The notes beneath the pieces were generated by a model. That model made no database searches. It had not been told where the DNA came from and saw nothing but the letters and a program-made list of their open reading frames with translations. This document shows positions 21,255-36,465 of a stretch of DNA of 54,182 bases, in pieces. The position numbers and the translations under genes were made by a program. The number at the start of each line of letters is the position of its first letter. Position 1 is the stretch's first letter. Origin of the DNA: a virus. Taxonomy: Duplodnaviria > Heunggongvirae > Uroviricota > Caudoviricetes. Location of the stretch: the IMG/VR virus record IMGVR_UViG_2585427735_000009; one strand, 5' to 3'.

Positions 21255-21702
21255 CAGGCACAGGAACAGCGGCCGCAGGCACCGTTGCCAGCGACCGGCG
21301 GACAATGCTCTGCTGTTCCTCGCTGTGCTGCATGTTCTGCTGTTTTTCATTCGTGGCCGCCTTACTGATTTGTGAAATGAGTTGCAGGGTGCGTTGCTGG
21401 TTTGCCAGCACCAGACGGGCTTCGTCCCGTTCACGCACAAGCACATGATTATTGTCCTCAAGGCGCTGCGTCTTCTGGTGCATTCCCCATACCACGGCAG
21501 CCAGCACACTCATCACCCCCAGCGCCGCCATACAGCCTCCGGCAATCAGGGCTGGTAAGGGATTATTCACCGCAGCCACAGCACACCCCGCAGCACCACA
21601 ACAGCACACAGCAGCGCAATCATGAGCGGTCGCCAGAAACGGTTCAGACTTTCGGCAAGTCGTAACGACATAACCATTCATCCGCCGAACGGCGGGCCTC
21701 AA
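21181..21702 (-). CDS. Rz-like inner-membrane spanin (start uncertain)
   Basis: ORF-track frame starts at a non-ATG codon; hydrophobic N-terminal segment then coiled-coil region; true start probably an internal Met (about 21681 or 21531). Confidence 0.55.
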   Translation of the reverse strand: MRPAVRRMNGYVVTTCRKSEPFLATAHDCAAVCCCGAAGCAVAAVNNPLPALIAGGCMAALGVMSVLAAVVWGMHQKTQRLEDNNHVLVRERDEARLVLANQQRTLQLISQISKAATNEKQQNMQHSEEQQSIVRRSLATVPAAAVPVPDDVADRVRRAVCEIRAGEAGADPR

Positions 21703-22144
21703 GACCGGGGAGTTTCACCCCCTTTGAATAAATCCAGCGGATATACTGCTTACAGGACGCGGGCATCTGCCCGGCATTGATAAGGCGCAGGAGCGTGGAG
21801 TTGCGAAAGTTCGTTTCACCGGCCCAGAAAATCCAGGAGGCCAACGCCACCGTCTGACCACGGGTAAGCGGCACCTGAACATGACGATCGATAGCCGCAA
21901 AGGCCCATTTCATGTCCTTTTCCAGCAGCTCCAGACACTCTTCATCAGTTTTTGTCATCCCCGGTTTCACATCCGGGCCGGTATGGCCGTAACAGATGGT
22001 GGGGGTGCCGGTGGGATCAATGTACGTGGTGTTTTCTTTCCCTTCCCAGTAGCCGGTGTAGTGCGTGGCAATGGTGAACGTCCCGGCTCCGGCCAGAACA
22101 AGGGCAATCAGCTTTTTACGCAGGGGTGCGGGGAGTTTTGGCAT
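21644..22144 (-). CDS. SAR endolysin (T4-type lysozyme, GH24)
   Basis: 166 aa; N-terminal Gly/Ala-rich signal-anchor (LIALVLAGAGTFTIATHY) followed by lysozyme catalytic region (E...D...T spacing). Confidence 0.82.
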   Translation of the reverse strand: MPKLPAPLRKKLIALVLAGAGTFTIATHYTGYWEGKENTTYIDPTGTPTICYGHTGPDVKPGMTKTDEECLELLEKDMKWAFAAIDRHVQVPLTRGQTVALASWIFWAGETNFRNSTLLRLINAGQMPASCKQYIRWIYSKGVKLPGLEARRSADEWLCRYDLPKV

Positions 22145-22215
22145 TGTTACGCTGTCTCATGGTGTTCTCTGAGTCAGCGTAACCGTGGGAAAAAGTGGGC
22201 AGGATTTGCGGAATA

Positions 22216-22638
22216 TCAGAAAAGCCGGGGCTGCGTGCGTTCCTGATGCAGGCGGCGCTGGTTACGGATAACGGAGTAAATCTGCGTCTCTGACATCTGG
22301 TAGTGGCGGCGCAGGGGTTCAATTTTTTCGCCCTGGCTCCAGCGGGAAAAAATCTCATTATTGCGCAGTTCGGTGAAAAGGGATTCACCGACCGGGAGAT
22401 AATAACCACGCCCGCCCATGTACCCGGCCTGTGCGGCCGCAACTTTACGGGCAAGCATTCCCGCCTGAGCAGGTTCAATCCCCTGACGGTGCAGTTCAGC
22501 ACTGATCACATCAACCAGGTCCCGCAGCGTGCCGGGCCAGTTCTTTTTCAGCTCATCATCAGGAATATCATCCAGACGGTCAATCAGCGCGTGCAGCTGT
22601 TCGCTGTCACCAAACATGCTCATCTGTGTTTCAGCCAT
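22216..22638 (-). CDS. Mor/C-family transcriptional activator of middle/late genes
   Basis: 140-aa ORF between gemA-like gene and lysis genes; C-terminal HTH typical of Mu Mor/C family. Confidence 0.75.
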   Translation of the reverse strand: MAETQMSMFGDSEQLHALIDRLDDIPDDELKKNWPGTLRDLVDVISAELHRQGIEPAQAGMLARKVAAAQAGYMGGRGYYLPVGESLFTELRNNEIFSRWSQGEKIEPLRRHYQMSETQIYSVIRNQRRLHQERTQPRLF

Positions 22639-22708
22639 ACCCGCCTCCGGTCATCATTACACAGGGCAAGTTTAAAATAAAAATCCCGCGCTGTGGCGGG
22701 ATTTGGAG

Positions 22709-23221
22709 TTAACGGGGGAATGATTTTTCATACAGCCTGCAAACGCGCTCATAACTTATCACTGTACGCGCTGACATCCCCAGCACATCCAGCATTTTGC
22801 GGCGGTGCCAGCGTTTGAGACGCTCCAGCACATCAGAGGCCAGTGCGGGGTGTTGCTCCAGCCACTGCCAGTTAGCCACACCTTCACCGCCGTTCTGCGC
22901 GGCCGTCTGCGATTTCACCCAGCGGTTAATGGCGTTTTCCCCGCCATCAGCGATAAAGCCCTGCCGGTGCATCACTTTCCAGATGGCGCGAATTTTGGCG
23001 GTCACCGTCCCCGGTTTTAAGGCCCGGTTAACCGGCTTCTGACGCACTTTAAAACCGCGTTTTTTGAAAACATCCAGCACGCGGGATAACTCATCCGGTG
23101 ACATATCCCGGCAACTGGGTTTGCCGGTGGCTGCCAGTAGTACGGATGTGTAGGTCTCATGGTCAAGCTGTAGATCGCGTTTTGCGACATGTATTAAGGT
23201 AATCAGGGAAGCGCGATTCAT
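22709..23221 (-). CDS. gemA: GemA-like regulatory protein (Mu gp16-like)
   Basis: 170-aa ORF, position immediately upstream of mor/C; translation resembles Mu GemA family. Confidence 0.7.
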   Translation of the reverse strand: MNRASLITLIHVAKRDLQLDHETYTSVLLAATGKPSCRDMSPDELSRVLDVFKKRGFKVRQKPVNRALKPGTVTAKIRAIWKVMHRQGFIADGGENAINRWVKSQTAAQNGGEGVANWQWLEQHPALASDVLERLKRWHRRKMLDVLGMSARTVISYERVCRLYEKSFPR

Positions 23222-23285
23222 TATCGTGTCTCCGTAACAACAGGCGGCATGGCAACGCCGCCCGGATAAAACTAAAGGTATCGAT

Positions 23286-23696
23286 ATGAAAATAGATTAC
23301 GATGAAGTATTAAGTATTCTCACAACTTTTCAGGATGCTGAAACACCTTTCCTTACACTACAGGATCTGGGCATGGCTGAGGCAGAAGGAGAGGAAAAGG
23401 ATAAAAAAGTTTTTCATCTTATGCTTCTCGCTGATAATGGCTCAATTGTTAATGGTGATATGCAGTCAGAAACACCCAAATATATTGGTTTCTTTTTCCA
23501 TTCTCTGGGCGTTGGTTTCAGAAACACGCCCATTATGCTTACCCAGCAGGGGCATGATTTAGCTAACGCCCTGAGAAAAAAACCAATCCTTGAAAGAATC
23601 AAAAAGGAGTTTACAGACGCACCATTTGATCTAATTAAAGAAGTTACCAAATCAATGTTAACCAGGTTCGTCAAAGAACGTATTGGGATTGACTGA
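23286..23696 (+). CDS. Hypothetical protein, inverted AT-rich insert in early region
   Basis: 136-aa ORF on opposite strand to all flanking phage genes; visibly AT-rich; no recognisable motifs. Confidence 0.5.
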   Translation: MKIDYDEVLSILTTFQDAETPFLTLQDLGMAEAEGEEKDKKVFHLMLLADNGSIVNGDMQSETPKYIGFFFHSLGVGFRNTPIMLTQQGHDLANALRKKPILERIKKEFTDAPFDLIKEVTKSMLTRFVKERIGID

Positions 23697-23966
23697 ACAA
23701 CTTAATTCAGCCAGTAATCGCAGGGCGGCGACAGCCGCCTGCTTGTCACTTCTTTTAGCTATTTCCGCAAGAGTATGCACAATCCATAACGGACTTAACG
23801 CCACGGCTGAATCCAGAATCATGTCATCCATAATAATTTCTGGCATATCCCGCTTGTCACATTCTTTATCCATAAAAGAAACGAATTTCTCTGCATCTTC
23901 CGGTTTCATGCCTCCGGCGATAAGGATTTTGCGATATTCATAAGACGATCTTAATTCAATACTCAT
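23658..23966 (-). CDS. Hypothetical early-region protein
   Basis: 102-aa ORF; 3' end overlaps convergently with the plus-strand ORF. Confidence 0.4.
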   Translation of the reverse strand: MSIELRSSYEYRKILIAGGMKPEDAEKFVSFMDKECDKRDMPEIIMDDMILDSAVALSPLWIVHTLAEIAKRSDKQAAVAALRLLAELSCSVNPNTFFDEPG

Positions 23967-23981
23967 TATTCACCTGCCTGC

Positions 23982-24374
23982 TTAATCTGTTTCCAGTGCT
24001 TTGCTACGGGCTATAGCCTCACATTCAAAAAATACCGACTCCGGCACGCGCTCTTTTAATTCACGAACAAGGAAATCATTAACGCGTTCATGACGTCTTA
24101 TATTTCTTTCCTTTTCCTCCTGGCGCAATACAGCAAGGCGGTATTCAACAGCCCGGCGTTGTTTCTGAAAGACAGCCAGTGCTTTTCTGGCAGCATTACG
24201 CCATGCATCATCGCCACATGGTGCGTATTCAAGCTGAAATTTAATCTCTTCAATAGTTTCTTTGATTTTTGCCAGCAAGCTAAGACAGTCGCTTATTGTC
24301 TCCAGCTTTTCATTATCAATATAACTTCTCACGCATTCACCTCCCGTAATTCCGGTAAAGCCGAAATATGACAC
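23982..24374 (-). CDS. Hypothetical early-region protein
   Basis: 130-aa ORF in co-directional early gene block. Confidence 0.45.
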   Translation of the reverse strand: MSYFGFTGITGGECVRSYIDNEKLETISDCLSLLAKIKETIEEIKFQLEYAPCGDDAWRNAARKALAVFQKQRRAVEYRLAVLRQEEKERNIRRHERVNDFLVRELKERVPESVFFECEAIARSKALETD

Positions 24375-24658
24375 CAGTGCGTCACCTGTCCGTCTTCATC
24401 TTCAAGGCAGGCTCCGGTTTCTTCATCAACAAAAAAGCCTTCATACCCCATATGGCCGATGCGCAGCTCCTGACGGTGACCATACTGAACAATCAGCACG
24501 ACAGCCTCCATATCAGGTGGGAAAGCATCATTCAGTGAATGCCAGGGATAACCGCGTAAATCCCCGAAATAAACACCGGTCAGCGTTCCGCCACAGAGCG
24601 GCATTCCGGCGGCACACACAAGAGGTTCATCTGATTCAACAAATAAGGTCGTTATCAT
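24329..24658 (-). CDS. Hypothetical early-region protein
   Basis: 109-aa ORF; 4-nt overlap with upstream gene. Confidence 0.45.
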   Translation of the reverse strand: MITTLFVESDEPLVCAAGMPLCGGTLTGVYFGDLRGYPWHSLNDAFPPDMEAVVLIVQYGHRQELRIGHMGYEGFFVDEETGACLEDEDGQVTHWCHISALPELREVNA

Positions 24659-25206
24659 GGCGTTAACTCCCGTAATACAGCGTCCTCGGCAGTCCGGCGA
24701 CGGTAATAAACTGCGTGAGCAGAATGTTCAGATATTCCAAACTTTTCGCCAATTTCCCGGAATGACAGACGGCGTGGGTAATCGGAATCACGCAGCGCAC
24801 GTATAAGACGTACATCATCATCAGATATGCGCGTGCCGGGGCGTAACTCTCCGCACTTTGTTAATCCAGCACCAATCATTCCTGCCCGACATCTGACAGA
24901 ATCTTTATTACGTCCGAGATATTCTCCCATTTGCTGGCAGGTCATTGTTCTGGCATTTTTTCGAATAAACTTATCTTCATCAGGTGTAAATCTTGGGTGT
25001 TTATATTTCAGTAACTCCGGGTATGAACTGCGCAATACACCAGTCCGGTTATATACAGCCCAGACAGTTCTTTTTATTCTGGCAGCAATATCCTTAACCG
25101 GGGTGGATGAATAAAGCGCAATCAGTAGCGCATCTTCTTCAGGTGTCCACGCGCGGACATGAGCGGGTGTACGACCTTTTCGCCCCATGTGTTGTAAAAT
25201 CATCAT
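24655..25206 (-). CDS. Hypothetical protein with Myb/SANT-like helix-turn-helix repeats
   Basis: 183-aa ORF; repeated W/F-x-TP-(E/D)-ED motifs (RAWTPEEDALLIALY, RFTPDEDKFIRKN, ISDDDVRLIRAL) suggest tandem HTH repeats. Confidence 0.45.
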   Translation of the reverse strand: MMILQHMGRKGRTPAHVRAWTPEEDALLIALYSSTPVKDIAARIKRTVWAVYNRTGVLRSSYPELLKYKHPRFTPDEDKFIRKNARTMTCQQMGEYLGRNKDSVRCRAGMIGAGLTKCGELRPGTRISDDDVRLIRALRDSDYPRRLSFREIGEKFGISEHSAHAVYYRRRTAEDAVLRELTP

Positions 25207-25209
25207 ACA

Positions 25210-25725
25210 TCACCCCCTGACTCGCTTTTCGGCAGCATAAAACTCATCAGACAGAATTTCGGTCATTTTCCGTTTTGCGGAATCATCTTCGCACTGAAGA
25301 TAAATCACATTGTCAACGCAGAACCAGTTCACGGGACCATACAATATTGCTGAGAAGTCAATACCCAGCCAGAACAACAGGGCATCGGTTCTGGCATACG
25401 TGACGGGCGAATATTCACGCCACAGACTGTTCAGTTCATCAGAGGCAACACGCAGGGCTTTAGGGATACGTGATGTGCGCGGTGTGCAGCTCCAGCCATT
25501 CGACGCAGTCGGTTTTCGCCATAAGTCGCGATGAAAAGGATATTTGTCCTCCGTAAAACGCAGTCCCTTAAAACAAAAACCACTGATACTGAATTCAAAT
25601 ACCGACCGGCACGCAACATTCAGCACGGCCTCAAGGCGTTTCGCCTCATCTTTTACCGTCTGGCAGTCCTGCTGGTATTTTTGCCACGCAGCCAGCGCGG
25701 AAGGGTTTGATGTTTTAAAGAACAT
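25210..25725 (-). CDS. Hypothetical early-region protein
   Basis: 171-aa ORF in co-directional early block. Confidence 0.45.
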   Translation of the reverse strand: MFFKTSNPSALAAWQKYQQDCQTVKDEAKRLEAVLNVACRSVFEFSISGFCFKGLRFTEDKYPFHRDLWRKPTASNGWSCTPRTSRIPKALRVASDELNSLWREYSPVTYARTDALLFWLGIDFSAILYGPVNWFCVDNVIYLQCEDDSAKRKMTEILSDEFYAAEKRVRG

Positions 25726-26258
25726 TACGCCACCTCCGCAGATATCCCGGCAGGCGCTGCTGTCCGGTCAACAATCAGGTAGCGCAGAACACGCGCGGTG
25801 ATATTCCAGCCGCTTAAACCGCAGATGATGACACCCAGGCGAATGTCGATATACGCCATCACAAACTGGGGCACGCCTTCTTTCATGGCCTGCTCATCAA
25901 CTTCAGCCACCACATAAACGGTTTCACAGGTCAGAACGCCCTGAGCAAATTCCCACGCCATCGACGGAATATCATGCCCCTCAATCCATGGCAGGGATTT
26001 TCTGAAGCTGCACCACTGAACATCATCAGCCGCAGATTCCTGTCTGCATTTGCGACGAATCGGCTGCACCGGGCGGGGACGCGGAATATCATAAAAACCG
26101 TTACATTCCGTCAGCACCCCGGCATCAACCGCATCACGCAGAAAATAAACCATGGAGGATGGCGGCATATTCATTTTTTCAGCCAGTACGCCGCAGGTCA
26201 GACGCCCGTAAATACTCAGCCAGTTTTTAACCCCTTCAAGCACTTTTGCATCAATCAT
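25725..26258 (-). CDS. Hypothetical early-region protein
   Basis: 177-aa ORF, adjacent to next gene without gap. Confidence 0.45.
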   Translation of the reverse strand: MIDAKVLEGVKNWLSIYGRLTCGVLAEKMNMPPSSMVYFLRDAVDAGVLTECNGFYDIPRPRPVQPIRRKCRQESAADDVQWCSFRKSLPWIEGHDIPSMAWEFAQGVLTCETVYVVAEVDEQAMKEGVPQFVMAYIDIRLGVIICGLSGWNITARVLRYLIVDRTAAPAGISAEVA

Positions 26259-26261
26259 GAA

Positions 26262-26804
26262 TTATTCCTCCGTCAGCGCCACATATTCAGAATGTTTAAT
26301 TTCCTGGCATTCTTCAGGAATACATCCGTTTATTTCCCTGCCATAAGCGCCCACTTTAAACACCACGCACAGGGCATCACGGGAGAACGAAGGGGTCCAC
26401 CAGGAGTCCGTGTTAAACATGGAGGGGATTCTCATTACCCCCAGCTTTTCACAGAGCCAGACAAGGAAATCAGGACGCTTTCTTAACTCGCGTTCAGCGG
26501 CTTCAATCATTGCGGCAATCGCCGGTCCTTCAGGGCATGACTCATCAGGTCTGGCTATAAAGCACTGTCCGCCACCGATAAAAGCCACATCATCGCGCTT
26601 ACGCCAGCCCGCAGGCAGAGCACCGGCAAAATAAAACTCACTGATTCTGTCCATGGCGAACGGCTTTAAGCGCAATCCGGCAGCGCCTGTATTTTTCAGT
26701 AATGTCCGAAGAATACTGTTGCGTAGCGGTAAAACAGCCTGTTGATATTTGGTGAAATATTTATTTGTCTGCACACGGTCTAATTTGAAATAAAAATATG
26801 CCAT
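26262..26804 (-). CDS. Hypothetical early-region protein
   Basis: 180-aa ORF downstream of gam. Confidence 0.45.
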   Translation of the reverse strand: MAYFYFKLDRVQTNKYFTKYQQAVLPLRNSILRTLLKNTGAAGLRLKPFAMDRISEFYFAGALPAGWRKRDDVAFIGGGQCFIARPDESCPEGPAIAAMIEAAERELRKRPDFLVWLCEKLGVMRIPSMFNTDSWWTPSFSRDALCVVFKVGAYGREINGCIPEECQEIKHSEYVALTEE

Positions 26805-26901
26805 ATTTCCGATTCCTTATTTTCAGCTTTCAGGCGCAAGCAGTCCCCTGACGCGAGCGCCATAATTAAAATGAAGTGATATTTAAATAATTAATGCGGT
26901 G

Positions 26902-27432
26902 TTATTTATTCAGTCCGGCATCCTGTTCAAAAGGCTCGACATAAAAACTTTCAGCGCCTTTATTCACCTTTATACCGGCAATGCCTTTCACCGCATCCGG
27001 CTCCGCCAGGACGGCTTCCTTGTTCACTTCCTCTTTCGTGCGGATGAATCGCTCAAGCCCCATACGGCGCAGCGTGTCAATCACACCTTCCACATCACGG
27101 CTGACGCTGCATGATGGCGTTCCCAGCCGCCATGACACCGTTCCGGTGGTCAGATTGGCAGTTTTGGTTTTGCCGCCGTTCGTCAGCTCATCACGGTTGG
27201 TTTTACACCAGTCCTGAATCCCTTTAAAAAGCACTTTGATTTGCTTTTTAAGATTTTCAATCTGCGGCGTATAACGGGCGGTGATTTCTGCCACTTCATC
27301 ATTCATCGCCGTTTCCAGGCGCAGCGCCTCTCGCTGAATATCGCCCAGGGTGCGGATATCGCGGCTGACTTCTTCGCGGGTCTGCGGTGCGGCCTCGGCT
27401 ACAGCCTTTAATTTTGTAACGCGTTTTGCCAT
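26902..27432 (-). CDS. gam: Host-nuclease inhibitor protein Gam (Mu Gam-like)
   Basis: 176 aa; strong similarity to Mu Gam as recalled (..DIQREALRLETAMND.., WCKTNRDELTNGGKTKTANLTTGTVSWR, FIRTKEEVNKEA, PFEQDAG). Confidence 0.85.
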   Translation of the reverse strand: MAKRVTKLKAVAEAAPQTREEVSRDIRTLGDIQREALRLETAMNDEVAEITARYTPQIENLKKQIKVLFKGIQDWCKTNRDELTNGGKTKTANLTTGTVSWRLGTPSCSVSRDVEGVIDTLRRMGLERFIRTKEEVNKEAVLAEPDAVKGIAGIKVNKGAESFYVEPFEQDAGLNK

Positions 27433-27443
27433 TTTGTTTTTCC

Positions 27444-27737
27444 TTATTGCAATGTATCTGGTGCGTTCTGCAAGGAGCGGCGCTCAATGCTGCTTTTCAC
27501 CCCCAGAGCCTGCATGGAACCCTGAAGTTCATCTGTCAGAAACTGAATAATTGTGGGGCTGTGATATTTAAGAATTTGCGCATAAACATCACATGGGCCT
27601 GTCGGTCTGTTCTCCGTATCACGTTCGATTTTTACAGTGGCAGTAACCCCCTCCGTGATTTCCTGACTATCATTACCGGCTGGCTTTACTTCATGCATTA
27701 CGTGGTTAAATTCAAAAATAACGCGTACTTTGCTCAT
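27444..27737 (-). CDS. Hypothetical small early protein (paralog A)
   Basis: Internal start MSKVRVIFEFNHVMHEV...; N-terminus similar to the adjacent upstream gene. Confidence 0.4.
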   Translation of the reverse strand: MSKVRVIFEFNHVMHEVKPAGNDSQEITEGVTATVKIERDTENRPTGPCDVYAQILKYHSPTIIQFLTDELQGSMQALGVKSSIERRSLQNAPDTLQ

Positions 27738-27741
27738 GGAA

Positions 27742-28014
27742 TTACCCCTGCTGATTAAATTCATTACCGTTAATAACCCCGGAAGCCATGCCCCTGTCTT
27801 TCATGAATGCACTGGCTTTCATTGCCACAAGCTCTGCGAAGTTTCTGCTTTCCGCGAGCATAACCACCCCAAAAATCATGGCGGGTCCATCACCTTTCTG
27901 CTTTATCCCGGTTGAACGTATGTCCAGACTTACCCCCATGCGCACTGTTCCATCAGCGTTTTTATGGATAACGTGCTCCTTATATTCGAAAATAATGTGT
28001 ACGACTTTACTCAT
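27742..28014 (-). CDS. Hypothetical small early protein (paralog B)
   Basis: 90 aa, MSKVVHIIFEYKEHVIHK...; N-terminal similarity to neighbour. Confidence 0.4.
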   Translation of the reverse strand: MSKVVHIIFEYKEHVIHKNADGTVRMGVSLDIRSTGIKQKGDGPAMIFGVVMLAESRNFAELVAMKASAFMKDRGMASGVINGNEFNQQG

Positions 28015-28292
28015 CCTCTGGTCCTCGTTCTGTTTGGATAACTGACCCGGCGTCTGACCTCACGGCAGAACCGAATCATGGCATTAAAGGCTTCTTCCTC
28101 CGTCACCGCTTCCGGTATCCCCGGAACCAGTAACTGCTCCTGTTCATCACGTCCATGACGCGCCATAACCTCAATCACATGCCGTACCGTGGCAGGCTTT
28201 CCGGCAACTATCGGCAATGCACCTTCCGGCAGGACGTAACCAAACTCAATAAGACCACTCGACCACGCCCATGCAATGAGATTTTTTTTCAC
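28011..28292 (-). CDS. Hypothetical small early protein
   Basis: 93-aa ORF, 4-nt overlap with downstream gene. Confidence 0.4.
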   Translation of the reverse strand: MKKNLIAWAWSSGLIEFGYVLPEGALPIVAGKPATVRHVIEVMARHGRDEQEQLLVPGIPEAVTEEEAFNAMIRFCREVRRRVSYPNRTRTRG

Positions 28293-28293
28293 C

Positions 28294-28560
28294 TCACACC
28301 TCCCAGTAAACCGTGCAGCCGCTGATGCGGGTGGCCTTCACACGGCGGCGCAGGCCGTTGGTCTGTATGGTGATTTCAATTTCACCGGTTCCCTGCACGT
28401 TGCCTACCGGCGGCGTGGTTTTCAGTGCAAAACGTTGCGGATAGCGCTTACTGCGTTCCAGTACCGCACCGGCAAGTTCGGTCAGACGGCGCGCGCTGTT
28501 CAGGGAGTCGAATAAATTCATTTTGTTACCGCAGGATTGCATATTCATATAACACCTCAT
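28294..28560 (-). CDS. Hypothetical small early protein
   Basis: 88-aa ORF, tightly packed in operon. Confidence 0.4.
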   Translation of the reverse strand: MRCYMNMQSCGNKMNLFDSLNSARRLTELAGAVLERSKRYPQRFALKTTPPVGNVQGTGEIEITIQTNGLRRRVKATRISGCTVYWEV

Positions 28561-28788
28561 TTAGCTGACTTGTTTCGCACCAACAGAACGGCATATTCCG
28601 CTGTAAACTTCTGTCGCACCTTCGCGATCAAGTCCGGCAGATATCACCATTCGTGTGCGGTCATTAAATTCAAAAAGTAAATCGCCACATTCTTTATTTT
28701 CGGCCAGTGAAATCACCTTCACGTTATCGAAATTAACCAGGTAAAAGCGTCCGTAAATATCAGGAATATTAAATACCGCCATAATCAC
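28561..28788 (-). CDS. Hypothetical small early protein
   Basis: 75-aa ORF immediately downstream of B. Confidence 0.4.
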   Translation of the reverse strand: MIMAVFNIPDIYGRFYLVNFDNVKVISLAENKECGDLLFEFNDRTRMVISAGLDREGATEVYSGICRSVGAKQVS

Positions 28789-29726
28789 ACCTGTGAGAGT
28801 AATTCAGGGTTGGTATAAACCTCTTTAAAGGCCGCATTAATATGTTTTTCTGTCAGCGCCGCGCCTTCACCGCTGGCGGTGAGCCACGCCTGGTTAAGCG
28901 TATGTGTCAGAACGCGTAACGCTCCCGGCTTTTCAGCGATAGCCTGCATGACGGCCAGCTCGGCCTCACCACTGATCCCCCACGCCATGGCAATGGCCAG
29001 CACATCCGCCTTTTTGGCCTTGCGAAGTTGTTTTGTACGGGCAAGACGGCTGAACAGGCGCGATAAATCATCAAAGGCGCGGCGTCCACCTTTAAACAAT
29101 CCGCGCGGGTTACCAATAAGCACCATCCCGATCCCCGTGGCGTCCTGAATTGCCCGGAGTTGCTCCAGACCGTCAATACCAAGATGATCCGCCTCATCCA
29201 CAATCACCAGTCCACGCGTTCCCATCAGGCGACGGCGGATGGCGCGGGATAATGCCCCTTTGTTCGCGCGGGTGTAATCAATCCCCAGCGCATCGGCCAG
29301 CTCCAGCAGACACTCCGTGACGCTGGAGTGCGCGGGTGACAGGGTGATCATCCAGGTGTTTGGTTGCTCCTGGCAGTAATTACGGGCAGTGGCCGTTTTA
29401 CCCACACCCGGTACGCCCACAATAACGTTAATACAGCCCATCAGGCGAACCGCCTGAAACAGTGCGCGCAGCTCCTGGACTGTCTGAGTTTCCACAAACT
29501 GCGGCGGTTCCGGCAGTGCGCTTTGTTTATTCCAGTTCTCATACCAGGAGCGCAGGGAAGCAGCCACAGCAGCGTTATCGCCTTTATATTTTCCCTTACG
29601 GAAAGCCGATAATGTGCCGTCGGAAATTCCCGCCTCTCTGGCGATGGCATACTGCGTCAGTACGCCGCCATCAATAAGTTCATCAATGGTCTTGATTACA
29701 TCGTTAATATCGGTCATATTATTCAC
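28785..29726 (-). CDS. B: DNA transposition protein B (AAA+ ATPase, Mu B-like)
   Basis: 313 aa; N-terminal HTH, Walker A VGVPGVGKT, Walker B VIVDEADHL; colinear with Mu B. Confidence 0.9.
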   Translation of the reverse strand: MNNMTDINDVIKTIDELIDGGVLTQYAIAREAGISDGTLSAFRKGKYKGDNAAVAASLRSWYENWNKQSALPEPPQFVETQTVQELRALFQAVRLMGCINVIVGVPGVGKTATARNYCQEQPNTWMITLSPAHSSVTECLLELADALGIDYTRANKGALSRAIRRRLMGTRGLVIVDEADHLGIDGLEQLRAIQDATGIGMVLIGNPRGLFKGGRRAFDDLSRLFSRLARTKQLRKAKKADVLAIAMAWGISGEAELAVMQAIAEKPGALRVLTHTLNQAWLTASGEGAALTEKHINAAFKEVYTNPELLSQV

Positions 29727-29799
29727 CTCGCTTGAGACAGCATTCTCCGAGACTGAAACCTCAAATAACCTGAGTCACCCCTCGGGTTATTTTTTTATT

Positions 29800-31890
29800 T
29801 CAGGCCAGCGGATCACTTTCTTTTAATTTCGCTTCGAGCAACTGCAATCCCCGCTGGAAATTACGCTCGTATTCTTCATCAGGTTCATCGTCAGCGACCG
29901 GTTGCTGAACGGTCACCGTATTACCCACAGGGCGGTATATGTTTTCCAGCCAGGGCTCCTGCGGCTTGTGCTCCAGCACGTTGACAACCTCATCCTCGGC
30001 ATCACGGATTTTTTCCTCTGCGCGTTTACGCATGCCTTTAAGGCGCTGCTGCTGTTTGTAGTATTCCGCGCTGACAGGGAAGGCTTCGCGTTTATTGCCG
30101 TCCCATACCGCCTCGCAAATCACGCTGCCATCCGGGCGGCGCACGGTAATTCGTTCGGCATCATGAATGTCATAGCTGATAAGTACCTTACGGCCATGCT
30201 CGTCACGCAGCTCGGGCGCGTAGTAAATATTATTCAGCCAGCGTATTTCACAGCGTCTTACAGGGCGCTCCACCATCGGCCGGAACATATCCCGCAGTTC
30301 AACATCGGACAGCCATTCAATTTCCGTGTCCTCTTCCGCCAGGCGTTTTTTTCTGAACTCCGCCGGGCTGTAATGTTTACCGTTCGGCTTCATGGGTAAT
30401 TCATCGTGCGGCCGGTTGTTGTACCACTCAACACCGTCACGAATGGCATCAATCAGTTCAGACCAGGACGGTAAATCACGCATCGCTGACTGCTGCCGGG
30501 CGTTCAGCCGTTTGCCCTGTTGCAGGGCACTGAATGCCGAGCGTAAATCGCGGTTGGTTTTACGTAACGTCTCGCGATCTGCTCCTTTCCCGAAATAGGT
30601 GCGGTATTTACGGGCTATGCGCATCGGTAATGTGCGGTTAAGCCGTTCGATAATGCCCCGTCCCTGCGGATTACCGGCAATCCCTGTCGGGTGATTAATC
30701 CCCAGTCGTGGCAGTATCCCCACAATCTCCTTATCCAGGACGTCGGCGGTTTCCCCGGAGCCATTATCCGAGTAATACAGAAACGGTTTGCCATGATGGC
30801 GAATACCGTGCTGTATGGCACCGGCTACGGCGAAAACATTTTCAGCCAGGTCAAGGCTCCAGCCCACCACAAAGCGCGTGCCACCGTCGATAACAAAGGT
30901 CACTTCCGGTGCGAATGGCCGCCCGTGAACCGGGTGCGCGCATTTCAGCTTCATGCCGTGACCGTCACCAATCCAGACATAATTCACCGGCATTCTGGAC
31001 CAGTCGCGGCGCGTGAATCCCTCAAGCTGACGGTATTCACTGCCAGTTACCCGGCCTTTTTGTTTCACCACTTCCGGCAGTTTCTTCATTGCGCGGCGAA
31101 TGGTGTCATAAGAGGGCATGATATCGAGCATATAAGGCTCATCAGCGTGCCGGTGCTGCCATTCAGCAACAAAATCCTCGTAAGCCTCGGTCATTGGTCG
31201 GCCGTTTGACTGGCGATACTGCGCCAGAAATTCGGGCAGCCAGTTAATATCTTCGGCTTTTATTTCCTGGCGTTTACCCGGTGCCAGTAAAAGCAGGCGT
31301 TCAGCGGCGTTCTGTGCCTTGTTAAAGGCCGCAATCCAGCGTTTCAGCGTGATTTCACTCAACGCGCGGCTGTTTCCCTTTTTGGCGTTCGCCGTCTCAA
31401 CCATTGCCACAATGCGCTCGTCCAGTTGTGATCGTGCCAGGCTGTTAACGAGGAACCGGATAGCCTTAGCGCAACTAAAGCCGGGTTGTTGCGCGATTTT
31501 CAGCACCTCGCTGACGATCGCTATTCGTGCCTCTGCCACTTTACGTTGGTTTTCAGTCAGGGCATTGAGGCGTTCGACCATCAGTTGGGGTGATCCGCGA
31601 TATGCCTCCACCGCATCAACCACGGCAGGTGAGCGTCTGGCCTTTGTCACCACCGGAGCCGGTGATTCATCGGCTTTTTGCGTCATCAGTTGCAGGGCGT
31701 AGCGTTCACGTAATGCCTGCTGCGTCACTTCAGGTAAACAGTCGATGCTGTATTCAGTTGCTTTAGAGCCTGAGCGACGACGGGAACAACAGCTTTTCCC
31801 TTGTACGTAACGTTGTAATGCCTGGCGAATACCTTTTGTTGTAGCAGGCATTCCGGGCGCGCCAATCAGTTCTTTTGCAATGACATACAT
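29800..31890 (-). CDS. A: Mu-type DDE transposase A
   Basis: 696-aa ORF between ner and B; size and position of Mu A. Confidence 0.88.
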   Translation of the reverse strand: MYVIAKELIGAPGMPATTKGIRQALQRYVQGKSCCSRRRSGSKATEYSIDCLPEVTQQALRERYALQLMTQKADESPAPVVTKARRSPAVVDAVEAYRGSPQLMVERLNALTENQRKVAEARIAIVSEVLKIAQQPGFSCAKAIRFLVNSLARSQLDERIVAMVETANAKKGNSRALSEITLKRWIAAFNKAQNAAERLLLLAPGKRQEIKAEDINWLPEFLAQYRQSNGRPMTEAYEDFVAEWQHRHADEPYMLDIMPSYDTIRRAMKKLPEVVKQKGRVTGSEYRQLEGFTRRDWSRMPVNYVWIGDGHGMKLKCAHPVHGRPFAPEVTFVIDGGTRFVVGWSLDLAENVFAVAGAIQHGIRHHGKPFLYYSDNGSGETADVLDKEIVGILPRLGINHPTGIAGNPQGRGIIERLNRTLPMRIARKYRTYFGKGADRETLRKTNRDLRSAFSALQQGKRLNARQQSAMRDLPSWSELIDAIRDGVEWYNNRPHDELPMKPNGKHYSPAEFRKKRLAEEDTEIEWLSDVELRDMFRPMVERPVRRCEIRWLNNIYYAPELRDEHGRKVLISYDIHDAERITVRRPDGSVICEAVWDGNKREAFPVSAEYYKQQQRLKGMRKRAEEKIRDAEDEVVNVLEHKPQEPWLENIYRPVGNTVTVQQPVADDEPDEEYERNFQRGLQLLEAKLKESDPLA

Positions 31891-31891
31891 A

Positions 31892-32140
31892 TCATGACGC
31901 CTTTCTCATATAGCTCTTAACCTGGTATCGACTGGGCCAGATTTCTTCAGGTGATACCCCAAGAGCATCAGCAATTATTTGCTGATACGGTCGGCAAGGA
32001 GTACGTAATACGCTTTTCAGCGAATCCCTGCTGTAACCAGCCTTTAAAGATAAAGAGCGCAGTGATAAGCCAGCCATGTGTAAGCGCGCCTTGATGATTT
32101 CAGGCGGCCAATCGTGATCTGAAACTTCTCTTCTACTCAT
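31892..32140 (-). CDS. ner: Ner-like DNA-binding protein
   Basis: 82 aa; HTH ..HMAGLSLRSLSLKAGYSRDSLKSVL.. and C-terminal ..ADALGVSPEEIWPSRY match Ner/Nlp family. Confidence 0.85.
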   Translation of the reverse strand: MSRREVSDHDWPPEIIKARLHMAGLSLRSLSLKAGYSRDSLKSVLRTPCRPYQQIIADALGVSPEEIWPSRYQVKSYMRKAS

Positions 32141-32320
32141 ACTTCCTCTATTCTAAAAAGTTACCCGCGCGGATATTCGTGCGGATATCTGTACGGGTAA
32201 ATAATGCATCACCAAAAATACCAAATCAAGGTATTTTTGGTATTTTTGCTTTTATCCTTATTTTTCAATTGGATAAATAGAAAGAAACCTTTCCTTAGAA
32301 AAGCACCAAGAGGTATCTTT
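32141..32320. promoter_or_regulatory. Divergent early/repressor control region with operator-like repeats
   Basis: Perfect 11-bp inverted repeat CCAAAAATACC-N7-GGTATTTTTGG at 32212..32240, adjacent direct repeat GGTATTTTTG, and direct repeat GCGGATAT at ~32169 and ~32181, between divergent ner and c. Confidence 0.5.
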
Positions 32321-32851
32321 ATGTCGCAGGGAAAAGAACCTGTTATTGAACGTATTGGAATGCTTACAAAGCGCTACCCTTCAAGAAGTGCAGCTGCCAG
32401 AGCGTGGGGAATCAATATCAACACATTAAACAGCTATTTCAAGGGAGGACAAACACAACCAGCCCCCAGAGAAAGTATCCTTATACGAATTTCTGAAAGT
32501 GAAGGCGTTAGTCTTGAGTGGCTTAAAGAGGGCAAGGGTGAATTACCAAACGATATTGGTATTTATGGTAATTTTGGTTGTTCTGGTGATAAGGGAGATC
32601 AGCTTACACAGATGCTTTCATTCCTTACGAAAGACGAACGAGAACAGTTAACCAATCTCCTTGCTCGCAAAGGTGTAGAGACGGTTCTGACACTGCTGAA
32701 TAAAGAAAACCAGGATTTATTACAACTAGAAGGCAGGAAGCGCCTGGCTGCGTTGATGATTGTAGATATGCCAGACGATTGCGTCAGAGAGATTTTGGAA
32801 AAAACCGAGACAAGTAGGCAATCAAATCCGGTAGAATCTAAAGCGGGTTAG
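32321..32851 (+). CDS. c: Mu c-type repressor
   Basis: ATG at 32321 with AAGAGGT RBS (MSQGKEPVIERIGMLTKRY...); divergent from ner/A/B; the upstream extension in the ORF track is probably not translated. Confidence 0.75.
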   Translation: MSQGKEPVIERIGMLTKRYPSRSAAARAWGININTLNSYFKGGQTQPAPRESILIRISESEGVSLEWLKEGKGELPNDIGIYGNFGCSGDKGDQLTQMLSFLTKDEREQLTNLLARKGVETVLTLLNKENQDLLQLEGRKRLAALMIVDMPDDCVREILEKTETSRQSNPVESKAG

Positions 32852-33010
32852 TTTGGCGAGGCTGGCCCGTATGTTAGTTGCCATATAGATTTAATGAAGT
32901 TTTAAACGCTTTAAAAAGTTGAGATCGCAGTATCAAAAGTTTTGCCGATTTTAGAATAAACGATTAATTATTGCACAATCGATATCAAATAGACTTTAAG
33001 CGCTCATCCA

Positions 33011-33101
33011 GACATCACCTGTTTTATTTCAGTATCTTACAGGTGATTTCACCTCCTTTCACTAAAACCCTCGTTGGTATCAAATGATTCACCTGGTTAC
33101 A
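33011..33101. repeat. Prophage terminal region with repeated TCACCT(G)/CAGGTGA motifs (putative transposase binding sites, attL-like end)
   Basis: TCACCTG at 33015, CAGGTGA at 33040, TCACCT at 33049, TCACCTGG at 33089; element ends ...GGTTACA at 33101 (TG on minus strand) immediately before dbpA sequence. Confidence 0.5.
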
Positions 33102-33609
33102 CGGTAGCGCCCGTGTACTGGTTGCTACTGATGTTGCTGCGCGTGGTCTGGATATTAAATCGCTTGAGCTGGTGGTGAACTTTGAGCTGGCGTGGGACCC
33201 TGAAGTTCATGTACATCGCATCGGTCGTACAGCTCGTGCAGGAAATAGCGGTCTGGCGATCAGTTTCTGTGCTCCGGAAGAAGCACAGCGGGCCAATATC
33301 ATTTCTGACATGTTGCAGATAAAACTTAACTGGCAAACGCCGCCAGCTAATAGTTCCATTGTGCCGCTGGAAGCAGAAATGGCAACGTTGTGTATCGATG
33401 GCGGGAAAAAAGCCAAAATGCGCCCGGGTGATGTATTAGGTGCACTGACAGGAGATATCGGGCTTAATGGCGCAGATATTGGCAAAATCGCCGTGCATCC
33501 GGCGCATGTCTATGTCGCGGTCCGTCAGGCTGTTGCTCATAAAGCATGGAAACAGTTACAGGGCGGGAAGATTAAAGGAAAAACGTGCCGGGTGCGGTTA
33601 TTAAAATAA
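33102..33609 (+). pseudogene. dbpA: 3' fragment of ATP-dependent RNA helicase gene dbpA, truncated by prophage insertion
   Basis: In-frame translation from 33103: [47 protein letters not shown]... (DEAD-box motifs V and VI) to stop at 33609; no N-terminal helicase core upstream, phage DNA instead. Confidence 0.85.
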
Positions 33610-33737: not shown

Positions 33738-34673
33738 TTATTTCACTTCAACCACATTCAGTCGTAACTCATCCAACTGATTTTCATCTTCTTCTGGCTG
33801 CCAGCCCGCCGGTTGTAGTGGGATCTCTTCGCGATCAAACGCCAGATCACCCCCGTTAACCACTTCAGAACCGTGGGTAATGCCTTTAAAATCGAACAGG
33901 TTGGTATCGCACAGATGCGACGGCACCACATTCTGCATCGCGCTGAACATCGTCTCGATACGCCCTGGATAACGTTTATCCCAGTCACGCAACATGTCAG
34001 CAATCACCTGACGTTGCAGGTTAGGCTGTGAACCGCACAGGTTGCACGGAATAATCGGGAACGCTTTTGCATCGGCAAATCGCTGAATATCTTTCTCGCG
34101 GCAGTAGGCCAGCGGACGAATAACGATATGTTTGCCATCATCGCTCATCAGTTTCGGAGGCATACCTTTCATCTTGCCGCCGTAGAACATATTTAAGAAC
34201 AACGTTTGCAGGATATCGTCACGATGGTGACCCAACGCGATCTTCGTCGCCCCCAGTTCCGTTGCGGTACGATAAAGGATACCGCGACGAAGGCGAGAAC
34301 ACAGTGAGCAAGTGGTTTTGCCCTCTGGAATCTTCTCTTTCACGATACCGTAAGTATTCTCTTCAACAATCTTGTACTCAACGCCCAGCTTTTCAAGATA
34401 CTCGGGCAGAACGTGTTCCGGGAAGCCCGGTTGCTTTTGATCGAGGTTAACAGCCACCAGCGAAAAATTGATTGGCGCGCTTTGCTGCAAATTGCGCAGA
34501 ATCTCCAGCATGGTATAGCTGTCTTTACCCCCGGAGAGGCAAACCATGATGCGATCGCCTTCTTCAATCATATTGAAGTCAGCAATGGCTTCGCCCACGT
34601 TACGACGCAGACGTTTTTGTAATTTGTTCAGGTTGTATTGTTCTTTCTTTGTAATTTGTTGATTTTCTTGCAT
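33738..34673 (-). CDS. ttcA: tRNA 2-thiocytidine biosynthesis protein TtcA
   Basis: 311 aa; PP-loop motif SGGKDS and paired CxxC motifs; sits beside dbpA and intR as I recall the E. coli K-12 layout. Confidence 0.92.
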
Positions 34674-35961: not shown

Positions 35962-36177
35962 TCATGAGTCTTTGATAAACTGATTTATCTTTGGATAGTT
36001 GTACCAGATAATCCCTCGTTTGCTGTCTGGCTTACCTAAAGGAGATACTCGTTTGAAGTGGAAGCCCTCCACCCAACAGTTCTGGCGGTATGCTTCAATT
36101 TGTCTGGCCCCCAGACCAGTGCGAAGCATCAGGCCGTATTCAACCATCCACTCTTCATTAAAGATTACTTGTGCCAT
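35962..36177 (-). CDS. xisR: Excisionase-like protein
   Basis: ATG at 36177 ([15 protein letters not shown]...); small basic protein directly upstream of integrase. Confidence 0.7.
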
Positions 36178-36255
36178 CGCATCACCTCTGGCAGGCGCCA
36201 ATGTTAGACTGAAATTGACGCCCGATGTTGATTATTAATAATCAGCTATGAAGTT

Positions 36256-36465
36256 TTAATTTGAATACAATGCAATTCTCGAGGACTGAAGTTTCTCGCA
36301 ATTAAAATTTATCAGTTTTACTTTCTGCTCTCTGGAAACGCCTGCTTCTTTTTTACCTGAGAGCATTTTTTCGTATTCTGATTTCGTTAGTTTAGATTTT
36401 GAATATCTTGTCCAGTTAGTAGGAGTGCCACATTCCTTTTCAATAGTGGCGGTAATTTTATACAT
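36256..36465 (-). CDS. ydaC: Rac prophage small protein YdaC-like
   Basis: ATG at 36465 (MYKITATIEKECGTPTNW...), 8-nt overlap with ralR stop. Confidence 0.55.
   Translation of the reverse strand: MYKITATIEKECGTPTNWTRYSKSKLTKSEYEKMLSGKKEAGVSREQKVKLINFNCEKLQSSRIALYSN

What the first reader, a model, noticed from the sequence alone, without database searches (positions are those of the whole stretch)
23286..28788. Block of about 13 uncharacterised small genes in the Mu-like early accessory region
Between B and gemA, the segment that in Mu holds kil, gam and other semi-essential host-takeover genes, this prophage has Gam plus twelve small ORFs without recognisable domains, plus one inverted AT-rich insert. 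This is the classical location for anti-defence and host-manipulation genes in transposable phages, so undescribed inhibitors are likely here.
Basis: inference. Interest (0 to 1): 0.6.

Follow-up and report, generated by a model that had tools for sequence, protein, structure and literature searches.

The report
Mu-like prophage early accessory gene block
This is the ordinary "semi-essential early" gene block of a common Mu-like E. coli prophage: 14 real small genes, most of unknown function and only one (Gam) a recognisable anti-defence gene. It also holds an apparently undescribed, deeply conserved 45-base hairpin element that phage Mu shares.

Summary
Between MuB (28785-29726) and GemA (22709-23221) lie 13 tightly packed minus-strand ORFs and one inverted, low-GC ORF.

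All 14 are real genes: each falls in a PHROG family, and dN/dS is 0.05-0.48 for the nine compared. Five have phage Mu counterparts:
- Kil (remote)
- gp9-like HTH protein
- Gam
- gp11
- gp12

The other nine have none. The block is the equivalent of Mu's 14-ORF semi-essential early region. It occurs at 90% identity or more in 234 of 5,426 complete E. coli genomes.

Comparison of 39 loci shows a fixed scaffold with at least four cassette-exchange slots. No ORF except Gam matches a known anti-defence or defence family. The PHROG label "host nuclease inhibitor" on the 93-aa ORF is unsupported by fold or sequence. "Undescribed inhibitors" is therefore plausible by precedent (Mu Gam, Kil, gnarl2/Mup07) but not shown.

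By-products:
- A ~45-nt hairpin after gam (26825-26873) is the most conserved DNA in the 11-kb early region. It is shared with Mu and with distant Mu-likes, and it always lies 17-28 nt upstream of whichever gene follows.
- A 109-aa acidic protein is under stronger purifying selection than MuB.

Verdict: a new member of a known kind, of moderate interest.

The parts
28561..28788 (-). o75: 75-aa (PGAP 73-aa) acidic protein, first gene after B; phrog_3375, function unknown
   Evidence: Present in 34/39 compared loci. Its C-terminal half aligns weakly with that of o93 (hhalign 90%, low Neff).
28294..28560 (-). Kil-like protein (88 aa; PGAP 84 aa), basic
   Evidence: phrog_2679 'Kil protein for bacterial septation inhibition', E 8e-46. 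PGAP names the identical WP_001057199.1 'Kil protein family'. hhalign against Mu Kil gives 84%, E 8e-6 over 63 columns.
28011..28292 (-). o93: 93-aa protein of a large unnamed family (546 clusters at 50% identity); labelled 'host nuclease inhibitor' in PHROG/NCBI, a label not supported here
27742..28014 (-). o90: 90-aa protein, phrog_4107, unknown
   Evidence: Possible tandem paralogue of o106 (hhalign E 1.7e-4, 73 collinear columns, probability 50%).
27444..27764 (-). o106: 106-aa (PGAP 97-aa) protein, phrog_2230, unknown; two allelic forms (~62-65% and >90% identity)
26902..27432 (-). Gam (Mu-type, Ku-like DNA-end-binding RecBCD antagonist)
   Evidence: PF07352, E 7e-42, full length. 57% identical to Mu Gam over 175 aa. 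In a distant sublineage the slot holds a DUF3164 protein instead.
26825..26873 (-). Conserved non-coding hairpin element: UUUUAAUUAU-GGCGC-ucg-CGUCAGGGGACUG-cuu-GCGCC-UGAAA
   Evidence: Covariance-model hit of 68.4 bits, single copy in the window. Shared with Mu (6358-6401) and with phages whose MuB is ~30% identical. Two compensatory pairs; 91% of cells paired against 32-48% in slid controls. It is the only segment of the early region at 88% nucleotide identity or more to distant loci.
26262..26804 (-). o180: 180-aa protein, phrog_2260, distant DUF5420 relative; occupant of a variable slot (present, absent, or a 24-37% allele)
25725..26258 (-). Mu gp11 homologue (177 aa)
   Evidence: 67% identical to Mu gp11. 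PF25754 Gp11_C, E 5e-40. Present in 39/39 loci; it was the query.
25210..25725 (-). Mu gp12 homologue (171 aa)
   Evidence: 52% identical to Mu gp12. phrog_2314. PGAP calls a close allele 'Mu-Gp12 family protein'. Present in 39/39 loci.
24655..25206 (-). o183: basic (pI 10) Myb/SANT + HTH DNA-binding protein; residues 66-167 are homologous to Mu gp9 (E8)
   Evidence: Pfam Myb, E 1.7e-5, plus HTH hits. phrog_323 'transcriptional regulator'. hhalign against Mu gp9 gives 97%, E 7e-11. pI.
24329..24658 (-). o109: 109-aa very acidic protein (pI 4.3), phrog_6925; optional gene under the strongest purifying selection in the operon
   Evidence: dN/dS 0.05-0.08 with saturated dS. 81-85% identity in loci where MuB is 57-79% identical. 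Found in 144 of 5426 genomes. Homologues occur only in E. coli and Salmonella and are all 'hypothetical'.
23982..24374 (-). o130: 130-aa (PGAP 116-aa) protein, phrog_6158, unknown; variable (12/39 loci)
23658..23966 (-). o102: 102-aa acidic protein, phrog_1988, unknown
   Evidence: Its 3' end overlaps the 3' end of the inverted ORF by 39 nt.
23286..23696 (+). o136: inverted, low-GC DUF2513-like (winged-helix-type) gene; cassette in the terminal slot next to gemA
   Evidence: PF10711, E 6.6e-5, 23.6 bits, below cut-off. phrog_585. GC 0.39. Found in 6-7 of 5426 genomes. Same slot and orientation at 45-52% identity in distant Mu-likes.

Best explanation
The block is the semi-essential early (SE) region of a Mu-like transposable prophage of the type common in E. 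coli, including O157:H7, where the literature names a Mu-like prophage Sp18. Thirteen small genes continue the ner-A-B early operon on the minus strand and run into gemA-mor. They would be transcribed as part of the long early transcript when the repressor is lifted. That is shown for Mu and inferred here from collinearity and from near-zero or overlapping gene junctions. Their products are small soluble proteins made at the start of lytic growth. Gam protects phage DNA ends from RecBCD. The Kil-like protein is expected to block host division. The gp9-like Myb/HTH protein and gp11 are probably DNA-binding factors. gp11 and gp12 form the invariant core. The rest are of unknown function. The region is a mosaic: a fixed scaffold (o75, Kil, o90/o106, Gam or DUF3164, hairpin, gp11, gp12) with at least four slots in which alternative cassettes are exchanged between phages. 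The slots are o93 versus a gp8-like gene, o180 present, absent or as a divergent allele, the o109/o130 slot, and the terminal slot beside gemA. The terminal slot here holds a rare inverted DUF2513-like gene. Because it faces against early transcription, it is most likely expressed from the repressed prophage, as a moron. A conserved hairpin after gam marks the entry to the o180/gp11 slot and probably acts in cis on the early mRNA, in processing, stability or translation of the next cistron. Only Gam is a recognisable anti-defence gene.
For: Flanks and order: Ner, A, B, Gam, GemA and Mor by Pfam. Mu homologues: Gam 57%, gp11 67%, gp12 52%, GemA 47%, Kil 84% and gp9 97% by hhalign. The Mu map has the same layout, including a ~98-nt gap after gam. 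Operon-like junctions. No Rfam family and no enrichment of promoter or terminator motifs. All ORFs fall in PHROG families. Purifying selection. The same block is in 234 of 5426 complete E. coli genomes and in 'inserted Mu-like phage' regions of two Stx phages. Scaffold and slot structure come from 39 loci and from the per-gene genome counts 6-7, 144 and 214. No transmembrane segments. Literature: the Mu SE region has 14 ORFs, mostly unassigned, on the early transcript with A and B, and deleting it restores host viability (PMC3325207). Gam_Mu blocks RecBCD loading. Hairpin.
Against: There are no expression data for this prophage. Co-transcription and early timing are inferred from Mu. Nine of 14 proteins have no functional clue at all. 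The Kil and gp9 relationships are remote. The predicted folds of o93 and o180 have no informative relatives. No convincing sigma-70 promoter was found for the inverted gene, so its expression in lysogens is a guess. For the hairpin, thermodynamic stability is unremarkable (z -1.1 on the sense strand). Wobble changes do not discriminate RNA from DNA (3 kept, 2 broken).
Confidence: 0.8

Rival explanations
1. One reading: the block is an anti-defence island, and at least one uncharacterised ORF directly inhibits a bacterial immune system such as R-M, RecBCD-linked systems or abortive infection.
For: Position is equivalent to Mu kil, gam and gnarl2/Mup07. Cassette-like presence/absence and allelic replacement of o93, o106, o180, o109 and o130 is the pattern reported for phage accessory and counter-defence genes (10.1101/2023.04.06.535777, abstract). 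o109 is small, very acidic (pI 4.3) and extremely constrained, as expected for a binder of a conserved host protein.
Against: No sequence or fold match to any characterised anti-defence protein apart from Gam. No gnarl2 homologue. No anti-defence HMM library was available, so absence is not proven. Several members look like DNA-binding regulators.
Confidence: 0.35
2. Most unknown members serve the phage's own replication, transposition and gene regulation (the classical arm/lig/cim-type phenotypes) rather than host immunity. gp11, gp12, the gp9-like HTH protein and the hairpin would form a conserved regulatory or replication-support module.
For: gp11 and gp12 are in 39/39 loci and in Mu. o183 is a multi-HTH basic protein homologous to Mu gp9. 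The hairpin is conserved independently of its neighbours. The region is 'semi-essential' in Mu.
Against: The slots that vary most (o93, o180, o109, o130, o136) are dispensable in natural relatives, which argues against core replication roles for them. No domain typical of replication or transposition was detected.
Confidence: 0.4
3. The inverted DUF2513-like gene is a recent foreign insertion with no role in the phage, that is, junk or a hitch-hiker.
For: Lowest GC in the block (0.39). Opposite strand. Present in only 6-7 of the 234 E. coli genomes that carry the region. One allele differs by a 1-bp indel that shortens the protein to 115 aa.
Against: Homologues at 45-52% identity occupy the same slot in the same inverted orientation in distant Mu-like phages, including ones with DUF3164 in place of Gam. 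That implies long-term retention.
Confidence: 0.1
4. Some of the small ORFs are not genes, only chance open frames.
For: Several are under 100 aa and have no Pfam or NCBIfam match.
Against: All hit PHROG families strongly. They are conserved in distant loci with dN/dS below 0.5. The packing has start/stop overlaps. Two gave confident AF2 folds.
Confidence: 0.03

Closest known systems
Semi-essential early (SE/SEE) region of bacteriophage Mu (genes kil/gp5 to gp15, between B and gemA)
   Same: Same position, strand and operon context, and 14 ORFs. Homologues of Kil, gp9, Gam, gp11 and gp12. The same ~98-nt gap after gam holds the same hairpin element.
   Different: Nine of 14 genes have no Mu counterpart, and Mu gp6, gp7 (gnarl2), gp8, gp13, gp14 and gp15 are absent. 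The gp9-like gene is twice as long and sits after gp12 instead of before gam. There is an extra DUF5420-like gene after gam. One gene is inverted.
Mu-like prophages of E. coli O157:H7/STEC (the literature calls the O157 Sakai one Sp18) and Mu-like insertions in Stx phages
   Same: 90-95% nucleotide identity over 91% or more of the block in most of the 234 E. coli genomes, including O157:H7 strains. The two Stx-phage records are annotated 'inserted Bacteriophage Mu-like phage'.
   Different: Most relatives have three small forward genes in the terminal slot in place of the inverted DUF2513-like gene. I did not check that the O157 hits are Sp18 itself.
Mu Gam / Ku-like DNA-end-binding proteins (PF07352)
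   Same: Full-length Pfam match and 57% identity to Mu Gam.
   Different: Nothing notable; activity not tested.
gnarl2 (Mu E6/Mup07), a small SE-region protein that alters O-antigen and sensitises hosts to phage (Silas et al. preprint)
   Same: Same genomic neighbourhood (between kil and gam) and similar size to o90, o93 and o106.
   Different: No detectable sequence relationship to any ORF here.
MbtH-like proteins (e.g. E. coli YbdZ)
   Different: No profile-level sequence similarity (0.6%). There is an extra C-terminal helix. The resemblance is of a very small fold and is not evidence of function.

Membership tests
Mu-type semi-essential early region | Lies between the transposition ATPase gene B and gemA-mor, co-oriented with ner-A-B | tested here: met
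   Pfam on the flanks; ORF map; Mu map.
Mu-type semi-essential early region | Contains a Mu-type gam | tested here: met
   PF07352, E 7e-42; 57% identical to Mu Gam.
Mu-type semi-essential early region | Contains homologues of other Mu SE genes (kil, gp9, gp11, gp12) | tested here: met
   gp11 67% and gp12 52%; Kil 84% and gp9 97% by hhalign; phrog_2679 Kil.
Mu-type semi-essential early region | Transcribed from the early promoter as one long transcript; dispensable but toxic to the host | not testable with these tools
   Known for Mu (PMC3325207). Here there is only operon-like packing.
Mu Gam (PF07352) | Score above the Pfam gathering cut-off over the full domain | tested here: met
   143.3 bits against a 28.3 cut-off; profile positions 1-149 of 149.
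Mu Gam (PF07352) | Binds double-strand DNA ends and blocks RecBCD | not testable with these tools
   Literature for Gam_Mu only.
'Host nuclease inhibitor' (label on o93 / phrog_1518) | Homology or fold similarity to a characterised nuclease inhibitor (Mu Gam/Ku fold, lambda Gam, Abc2 and the like) | tested here: not met
MbtH-like (for o93) | Sequence-profile similarity to MbtH-like proteins / Pfam MbtH match | tested here: not met
   hhalign of the 60-sequence profile against YbdZ gives probability 0.6%. No Pfam hit at E<=1.
MbtH-like (for o93) | Fold similarity | tested here: inconclusive
DUF5420 (for o180) | Pfam PF17457 above the gathering score | tested here: inconclusive
   12 bits against a cut-off of 26, but collinear (82-177 against 84-181 of 184). 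A 37%-identical homologue is named DUF5420 by NCBI yet itself scores 15 bits.
DUF2513 (for the inverted ORF) | Pfam PF10711 above the gathering score | tested here: inconclusive
   23.6 bits against a 29.6 cut-off, covering 1-96 of 100. PGAP nevertheless names it a DUF2513 domain-containing protein.
gnarl2 / Mu gp7 | Sequence homology to Mu E6/Mup07 | tested here: not met
   blastp and hhalign of all ORF families against Mu gp7 find nothing.
Known anti-phage defence systems (PADLOC) | Match to any PADLOC-DB model | tested here: not met
   0 families for 10 ORFs at E<=0.01.
Known anti-defence protein families (Ocr, Ard, Acr, Tad, Gad, Acb and others) | Match to a curated anti-defence profile | not tested
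Intrinsic terminator (for the hairpin element) | GC-rich stem-loop followed by a U-run | tested here: not met
   The stem is followed by UGAAA; not reported by the terminator scan.
Any Rfam family (for the hairpin element) | Covariance-model hit | tested here: not met
   No hit at E<=0.1 over 21500-33500, both strands.

The most novel reading that the evidence does not exclude
The ~45-nt element after gam (26825-26873) is a previously undescribed cis-acting element of Mu and its relatives. It would be an RNA hairpin on the early transcript, or alternatively a protein-bound DNA palindrome. It controls processing, stability or translation of the next cistron and marks the entry point of a cassette-exchange slot. 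In the same block, the optional but hyper-conserved acidic protein o109 would be an inhibitor that binds a conserved host protein.
Probability: 0.4. Interest if true: 0.6.

Novelty: new member of a known kind. Interest (0 to 1): 0.4.

Why it matters
The gene block is the expected accessory operon of a Mu-like phage that hundreds of sequenced E. coli genomes already carry. Its existence is therefore no surprise.

Its value is as a defined shortlist. The comparison separates an invariant core (gp11, gp12, hairpin) from exchangeable cassettes (o93, o106, o180, o109, o130, o136). The cassettes are the sensible candidates for anti-defence or host-takeover screens, and o109 stands out by its selection pattern.

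The analysis also removes one misleading database label, 'host nuclease inhibitor'.

The hairpin would matter more. It is a non-coding element conserved from Mu to phages whose MuB is only ~30% identical. It lies in a region studied for decades, yet it is absent from the curated Mu record. That suggests an unrecognised control point in the early operon of transposable phages.

Tried and rejected
- NCBIfam and PADLOC scans of the unknown ORFs gave nothing.
- PDB sequence searches for o93, o180, o109, gp12, o136 and o183, plus a 60-sequence profile for o93, gave nothing meaningful.
- The BFVD search for o93 gave only weak BRO/KilA-N-type hits (E >= 0.04).
- The AlphaFold-database library was unavailable.
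- The search for homologous proteins returned only close relatives for o93 and o109.
- The genome-contig scan found a single locus.
- I first took the window to be strain JKHS016, because 6 kb is 100% identical. I rejected this: the prophage-host junction lies in dbpA and no complete genome shares it.
- The o90/o106 paralogy and the o75/o93 C-terminal similarity are only weakly supported and are not relied on.
- For the hairpin I considered an intrinsic terminator (no U-run), a small ORF (a 1-nt indel shifts the frame across the invariant core), sigma-54 or sigma-70 promoters (poor matches by eye), RfaH ops and lambda nut-like sites (not conserved). None fits.
- The literature search for the core string found only coincidental CRISPR-repeat and primer matches.
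- My recollections that o109 resembles DUF551 and that one alternative cassette resembles DUF550 were not confirmed by Pfam.

Full report
**Observation**

The window carries a Mu-like prophage on the minus strand. Pfam identifies five flanking genes:
- Ner at 31892-32140
- MuA at 29800-31890
- MuB at 28785-29726 (Phage-MuB_C, E 8e-25)
- GemA at 22709-23221 (E 6e-28)
- Mor at 22216-22638

Between B and GemA, the ORF listing gives 13 consecutive minus-strand ORFs of 75-183 aa and one plus-strand ORF of 136 aa at 23286-23696. This is exactly the "Gam + 12 + 1 inverted" of the finding.

The junctions are operon-like. Gaps run from -46 to +15 nt, and with PGAP's shorter starts the overlaps are mostly 4 nt. 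The single exception is a 97-nt gap after gam.

The inverted ORF has the lowest GC of the block, at 0.39 with GC3 of 0.34.

All 14 are genuine genes:
- Each matches a PHROG family at E 7e-18 to 8e-105.
- PGAP annotates the same 14 CDSs in a 100%-identical stretch of another strain.
- Against distant relatives, synonymous sites are saturated while dN/dS is 0.05-0.48 for the nine block genes that could be compared.

**What the genes are**

Pfam recognises only four:
- Gam (PF07352, E 7e-42)
- the C-terminal domain of Mu gp11 in the 177-aa ORF (PF25754, E 5e-40)
- Myb/HTH motifs in the 183-aa ORF
- a sub-threshold DUF2513 match in the inverted ORF

Comparison with the proteins of phage Mu (record AF083977) gave these matches:

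| Window gene | Mu counterpart | Result |
|---|---|---|
| Gam | Gam | 57% identity |
| 177-aa ORF | gp11 | 67% identity |
| 171-aa ORF | gp12 | 52% identity |
| 88-aa ORF | Kil | hhalign 84%, E 8e-6 (also phrog_2679 'Kil') |
| 183-aa ORF, residues 66-167 | gp9/E8 | hhalign 97%, E 7e-11 |

Five of the 14 therefore have Mu counterparts. Nine do not, and Mu gp6, gp7, gp8, gp13, gp14 and gp15 are absent.

NCBIfam, PADLOC and PDB sequence searches found nothing for the unknowns. None has a predicted membrane segment. o109 is the most acidic (pI 4.3), and the Kil-like protein, o183 and GemA are strongly basic.

**Two proteins examined by structure**

*o93 (28011-28292).* PHROG and NCBI label it 'host nuclease inhibitor'.
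- An exhaustive search shows a large family: 546 clusters at 50% identity, built on an ~80-aa domain with invariant G13, G58 and E61.
- There is no Pfam domain even in longer fused members, and no PDB relative by profile.
- The AlphaFold model is confident (pLDDT 92).
- A profile comparison with E. coli YbdZ gives 0.6% probability, and BFVD gives nothing below E 0.04.

The nuclease-inhibitor label is therefore unsupported, and the MbtH resemblance is at most a shared small fold.

*o180 (26262-26804).*
- It has a 37%-identical relative that NCBI names DUF5420, and a collinear but sub-threshold Pfam match.

**Comparative anatomy**

The 6-kb block occurs in 234 of 5,426 complete E. coli genomes, mostly at 90-95% identity, including O157:H7 strains. 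It also occurs in two Stx phages annotated as carrying an inserted Mu-like phage.

I fetched 55 IMG/VR loci, one Citrobacter locus, three annotated E. coli loci and Mu. I then mapped gene content in the 39 loci that span B to GemA. The result is a scaffold with exchangeable slots:
1. o75
2. Kil
3. slot: o93, or a Mu gp8-like gene
4. o90
5. o106, in two allelic forms
6. slot: Gam, or in a distant sublineage a DUF3164 protein (E 1e-78)
7. the hairpin element
8. slot: o180 present, absent, or as a 24-37% allele
9. gp11
10. gp12
11. o183
12. a variable slot holding o109, small hydrophobic ORFs, or larger unknown proteins
13. o130
14. o102
15. a terminal slot beside gemA

The terminal slot holds either two to three small forward genes, including Mu gp13/gp14 homologues, or the inverted DUF2513-like gene.

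Counts in complete E. coli genomes are o180 214, o109 144 and the inverted cassette 6-7. The inverted gene is rare, but it is not a recent accident. Homologues at 45-52% identity occupy the same slot in the same orientation in distant Mu-like phages.

**How it most likely works**

In Mu, the SE region consists of 14 ORFs, mostly unassigned. It is transcribed with A and B on the long early transcript, and deleting it restores the viability of infected cells (PMC3325207).

By collinearity and packing, the same is inferred here. On derepression the 13 forward genes are made early, together with the transposition proteins.
- Gam is expected to bind DNA ends and exclude RecBCD. This is shown for Gam_Mu and inferred here.
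- The Kil-like protein is expected to block division (inferred).
- The gp9-like protein and gp11 are probably DNA-binding proteins (inferred).

The inverted gene faces against early transcription, so it is most plausibly expressed from the repressed prophage. I found no convincing promoter for it.

Precedent for host-manipulating genes in this region exists. Besides gam and kil, Mu E6/Mup07 is gnarl2, which alters O-antigen and sensitises hosts to phage (10.1101/2023.04.06.535777). That gene has no homologue here.

I put it at about 0.35 for at least one direct defence inhibitor among the unknowns.

**By-product 1: a conserved hairpin**

The 97-nt gap after gam contains the element UUUUAAUUAU-GGCGC-ucg-CGUCAGGGGACUG-cuu-GCGCC-UGAAA, at window 26873-26825 on the minus strand.

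*Conservation.*
- It is nearly identical in Mu itself (6358-6401, between gam and gp11), where the curated record annotates nothing.
- It is 92-95% identical in loci whose flanking proteins are only 30-68% identical and which lack Gam.
- It is the only segment of the 11-kb early region with 88% or more nucleotide identity to those loci.

*Wider distribution.* Pattern scans of IMG/VR recovered further sequence types in Mu-like phages whose MuB is only ~30% identical. In every case the element lies in the early operon downstream of gam or the DUF3164 gene. A scan that left the outer stem unspecified recovered only GGCG[C/U]...[G/A]CGCC among true instances.

*Evidence for a structure.* On 27 distinct sequences:
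- 91% of pair cells are standard pairs, against 32-48% when partners are slid.
- Two pairs show compensatory double changes (CG to UA, and AU to GC).
- Two pairs vary only by wobble.

*What it is not.*
- A 1-nt indel between types shifts the reading frame across the invariant core, so the conservation is not protein-coding.
- It is not an intrinsic terminator, since no U-run follows the stem.
- It matches no Rfam family.
- Its core string gives no relevant literature hit.

*Position.* The next gene starts 17-28 nt after the stem in 16 of the 17 loci where a downstream ORF could be called (61 nt in the other), whatever that gene is: gp11, DUF5420-like, or unrelated ORFs of 40-268 aa. A covariance model finds one copy in the window (68.4 bits).

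*Open points.* Thermodynamic stability alone is unremarkable. The single-base changes do not settle RNA against DNA, since three preserve wobble pairing on the sense strand and two break pairs.

My best guess is a cis-acting element on the early mRNA, acting in processing, 5'-end stabilisation or translational control at the entry to a cassette slot. A protein-bound DNA palindrome is the alternative.

**By-product 2: o109**

o109 (24329-24658) is optional: it occurs in 21 of the 39 loci by gene map (28 by tblastn) and in 144 genomes. Yet it is 81-85% identical in phages whose MuB is 57-79% identical and whose gp11 is 61-68% identical.

Synonymous sites are as saturated as elsewhere (dS 1.3-2.2). 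Its dN/dS is 0.05-0.08, the lowest in the operon and below MuB. It is very acidic, has no detectable domain, and is confined to E. coli and Salmonella Mu-like prophages. This pattern fits a binder of a conserved host target.

**Verdict**

The finding is real and correctly placed. It describes the normal accessory operon of a common prophage type, so it is a new member of a known kind.

The useful outputs are:
- the separation of core from cassettes
- the removal of one misleading annotation
- two concrete leads, the hairpin and o109

Interest is 0.4.

Noticed in passing
window 26825-26873 (minus strand); Mu L001 6358-6401: A ~45-nt conserved hairpin/palindrome lies after gam. It is shared with phage Mu and with distant Mu-like phages, and it is the most conserved DNA of the whole early region. 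It sits 17-28 nt upstream of whichever gene follows. It is not in Rfam, in the curated Mu record, or in the searchable literature.
   Followed up: yes
window 24329-24658 (minus strand): o109, an optional 109-aa acidic protein, has dN/dS 0.05-0.08. That is lower than MuB and every other early gene, although its synonymous sites are saturated.
   Followed up: partly
loci L006, L047-L055, L096, L122, L136, L080, L115 (gam slot): In a sublineage of Mu-like phages the Gam position is occupied by a DUF3164 protein (PF11363, E 1e-78) and no Gam is present. This suggests DUF3164 may be a functional substitute for Gam.
   Followed up: partly
window 33100/33101 and 33172-33609, 33738-34673, 34725-35960: The prophage left end abuts the 3' part of dbpA, so the Mu-like phage has inserted into and split the DbpA RNA-helicase gene. 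Next come an ORF I read as ttcA and a 411-aa integrase-like ORF (neither checked). No complete E. coli genome in the collection shares this junction, so the window is not from strain JKHS016 despite a 100%-identical 6-kb block.
   Followed up: partly
window 24655-25206 (minus strand) vs Mu gp9 (L001 5494-5781): The 183-aa Myb/HTH protein is an expanded homologue of Mu gp9/E8 (hhalign 97%). It sits after gp12 instead of before gam, so a gene has moved within the operon.
   Followed up: partly
locus L161 (IMGVR_UViG_2558860275_000002), elements at 314 and 779 of the oriented 1016-nt stretch: One phage contig carries two copies of the hairpin element 465 nt apart, each of a different sequence type.
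   Followed up: no
window 23286-23696 vs L005 587-934 (NZ_OZ547136.1): A 1-bp indel near the 3' end gives a 115-aa form of the inverted DUF2513-like protein in one genome, against 136 aa here. In the window form, the last 39 nt overlap the 3' end of the convergent o102 gene.
   Followed up: no
loci L010 and L042 (gam region): Gam, and in L010 also o90/o106, appears split into two ORFs. This could be frameshifts or assembly errors in these IMG/VR contigs.
   Followed up: no
window 36000-54182: GC drops to 0.30-0.47 over much of the rest of the window, downstream of the integrase-like ORF. This looks like a second horizontally acquired element. Not examined.
   Followed up: no
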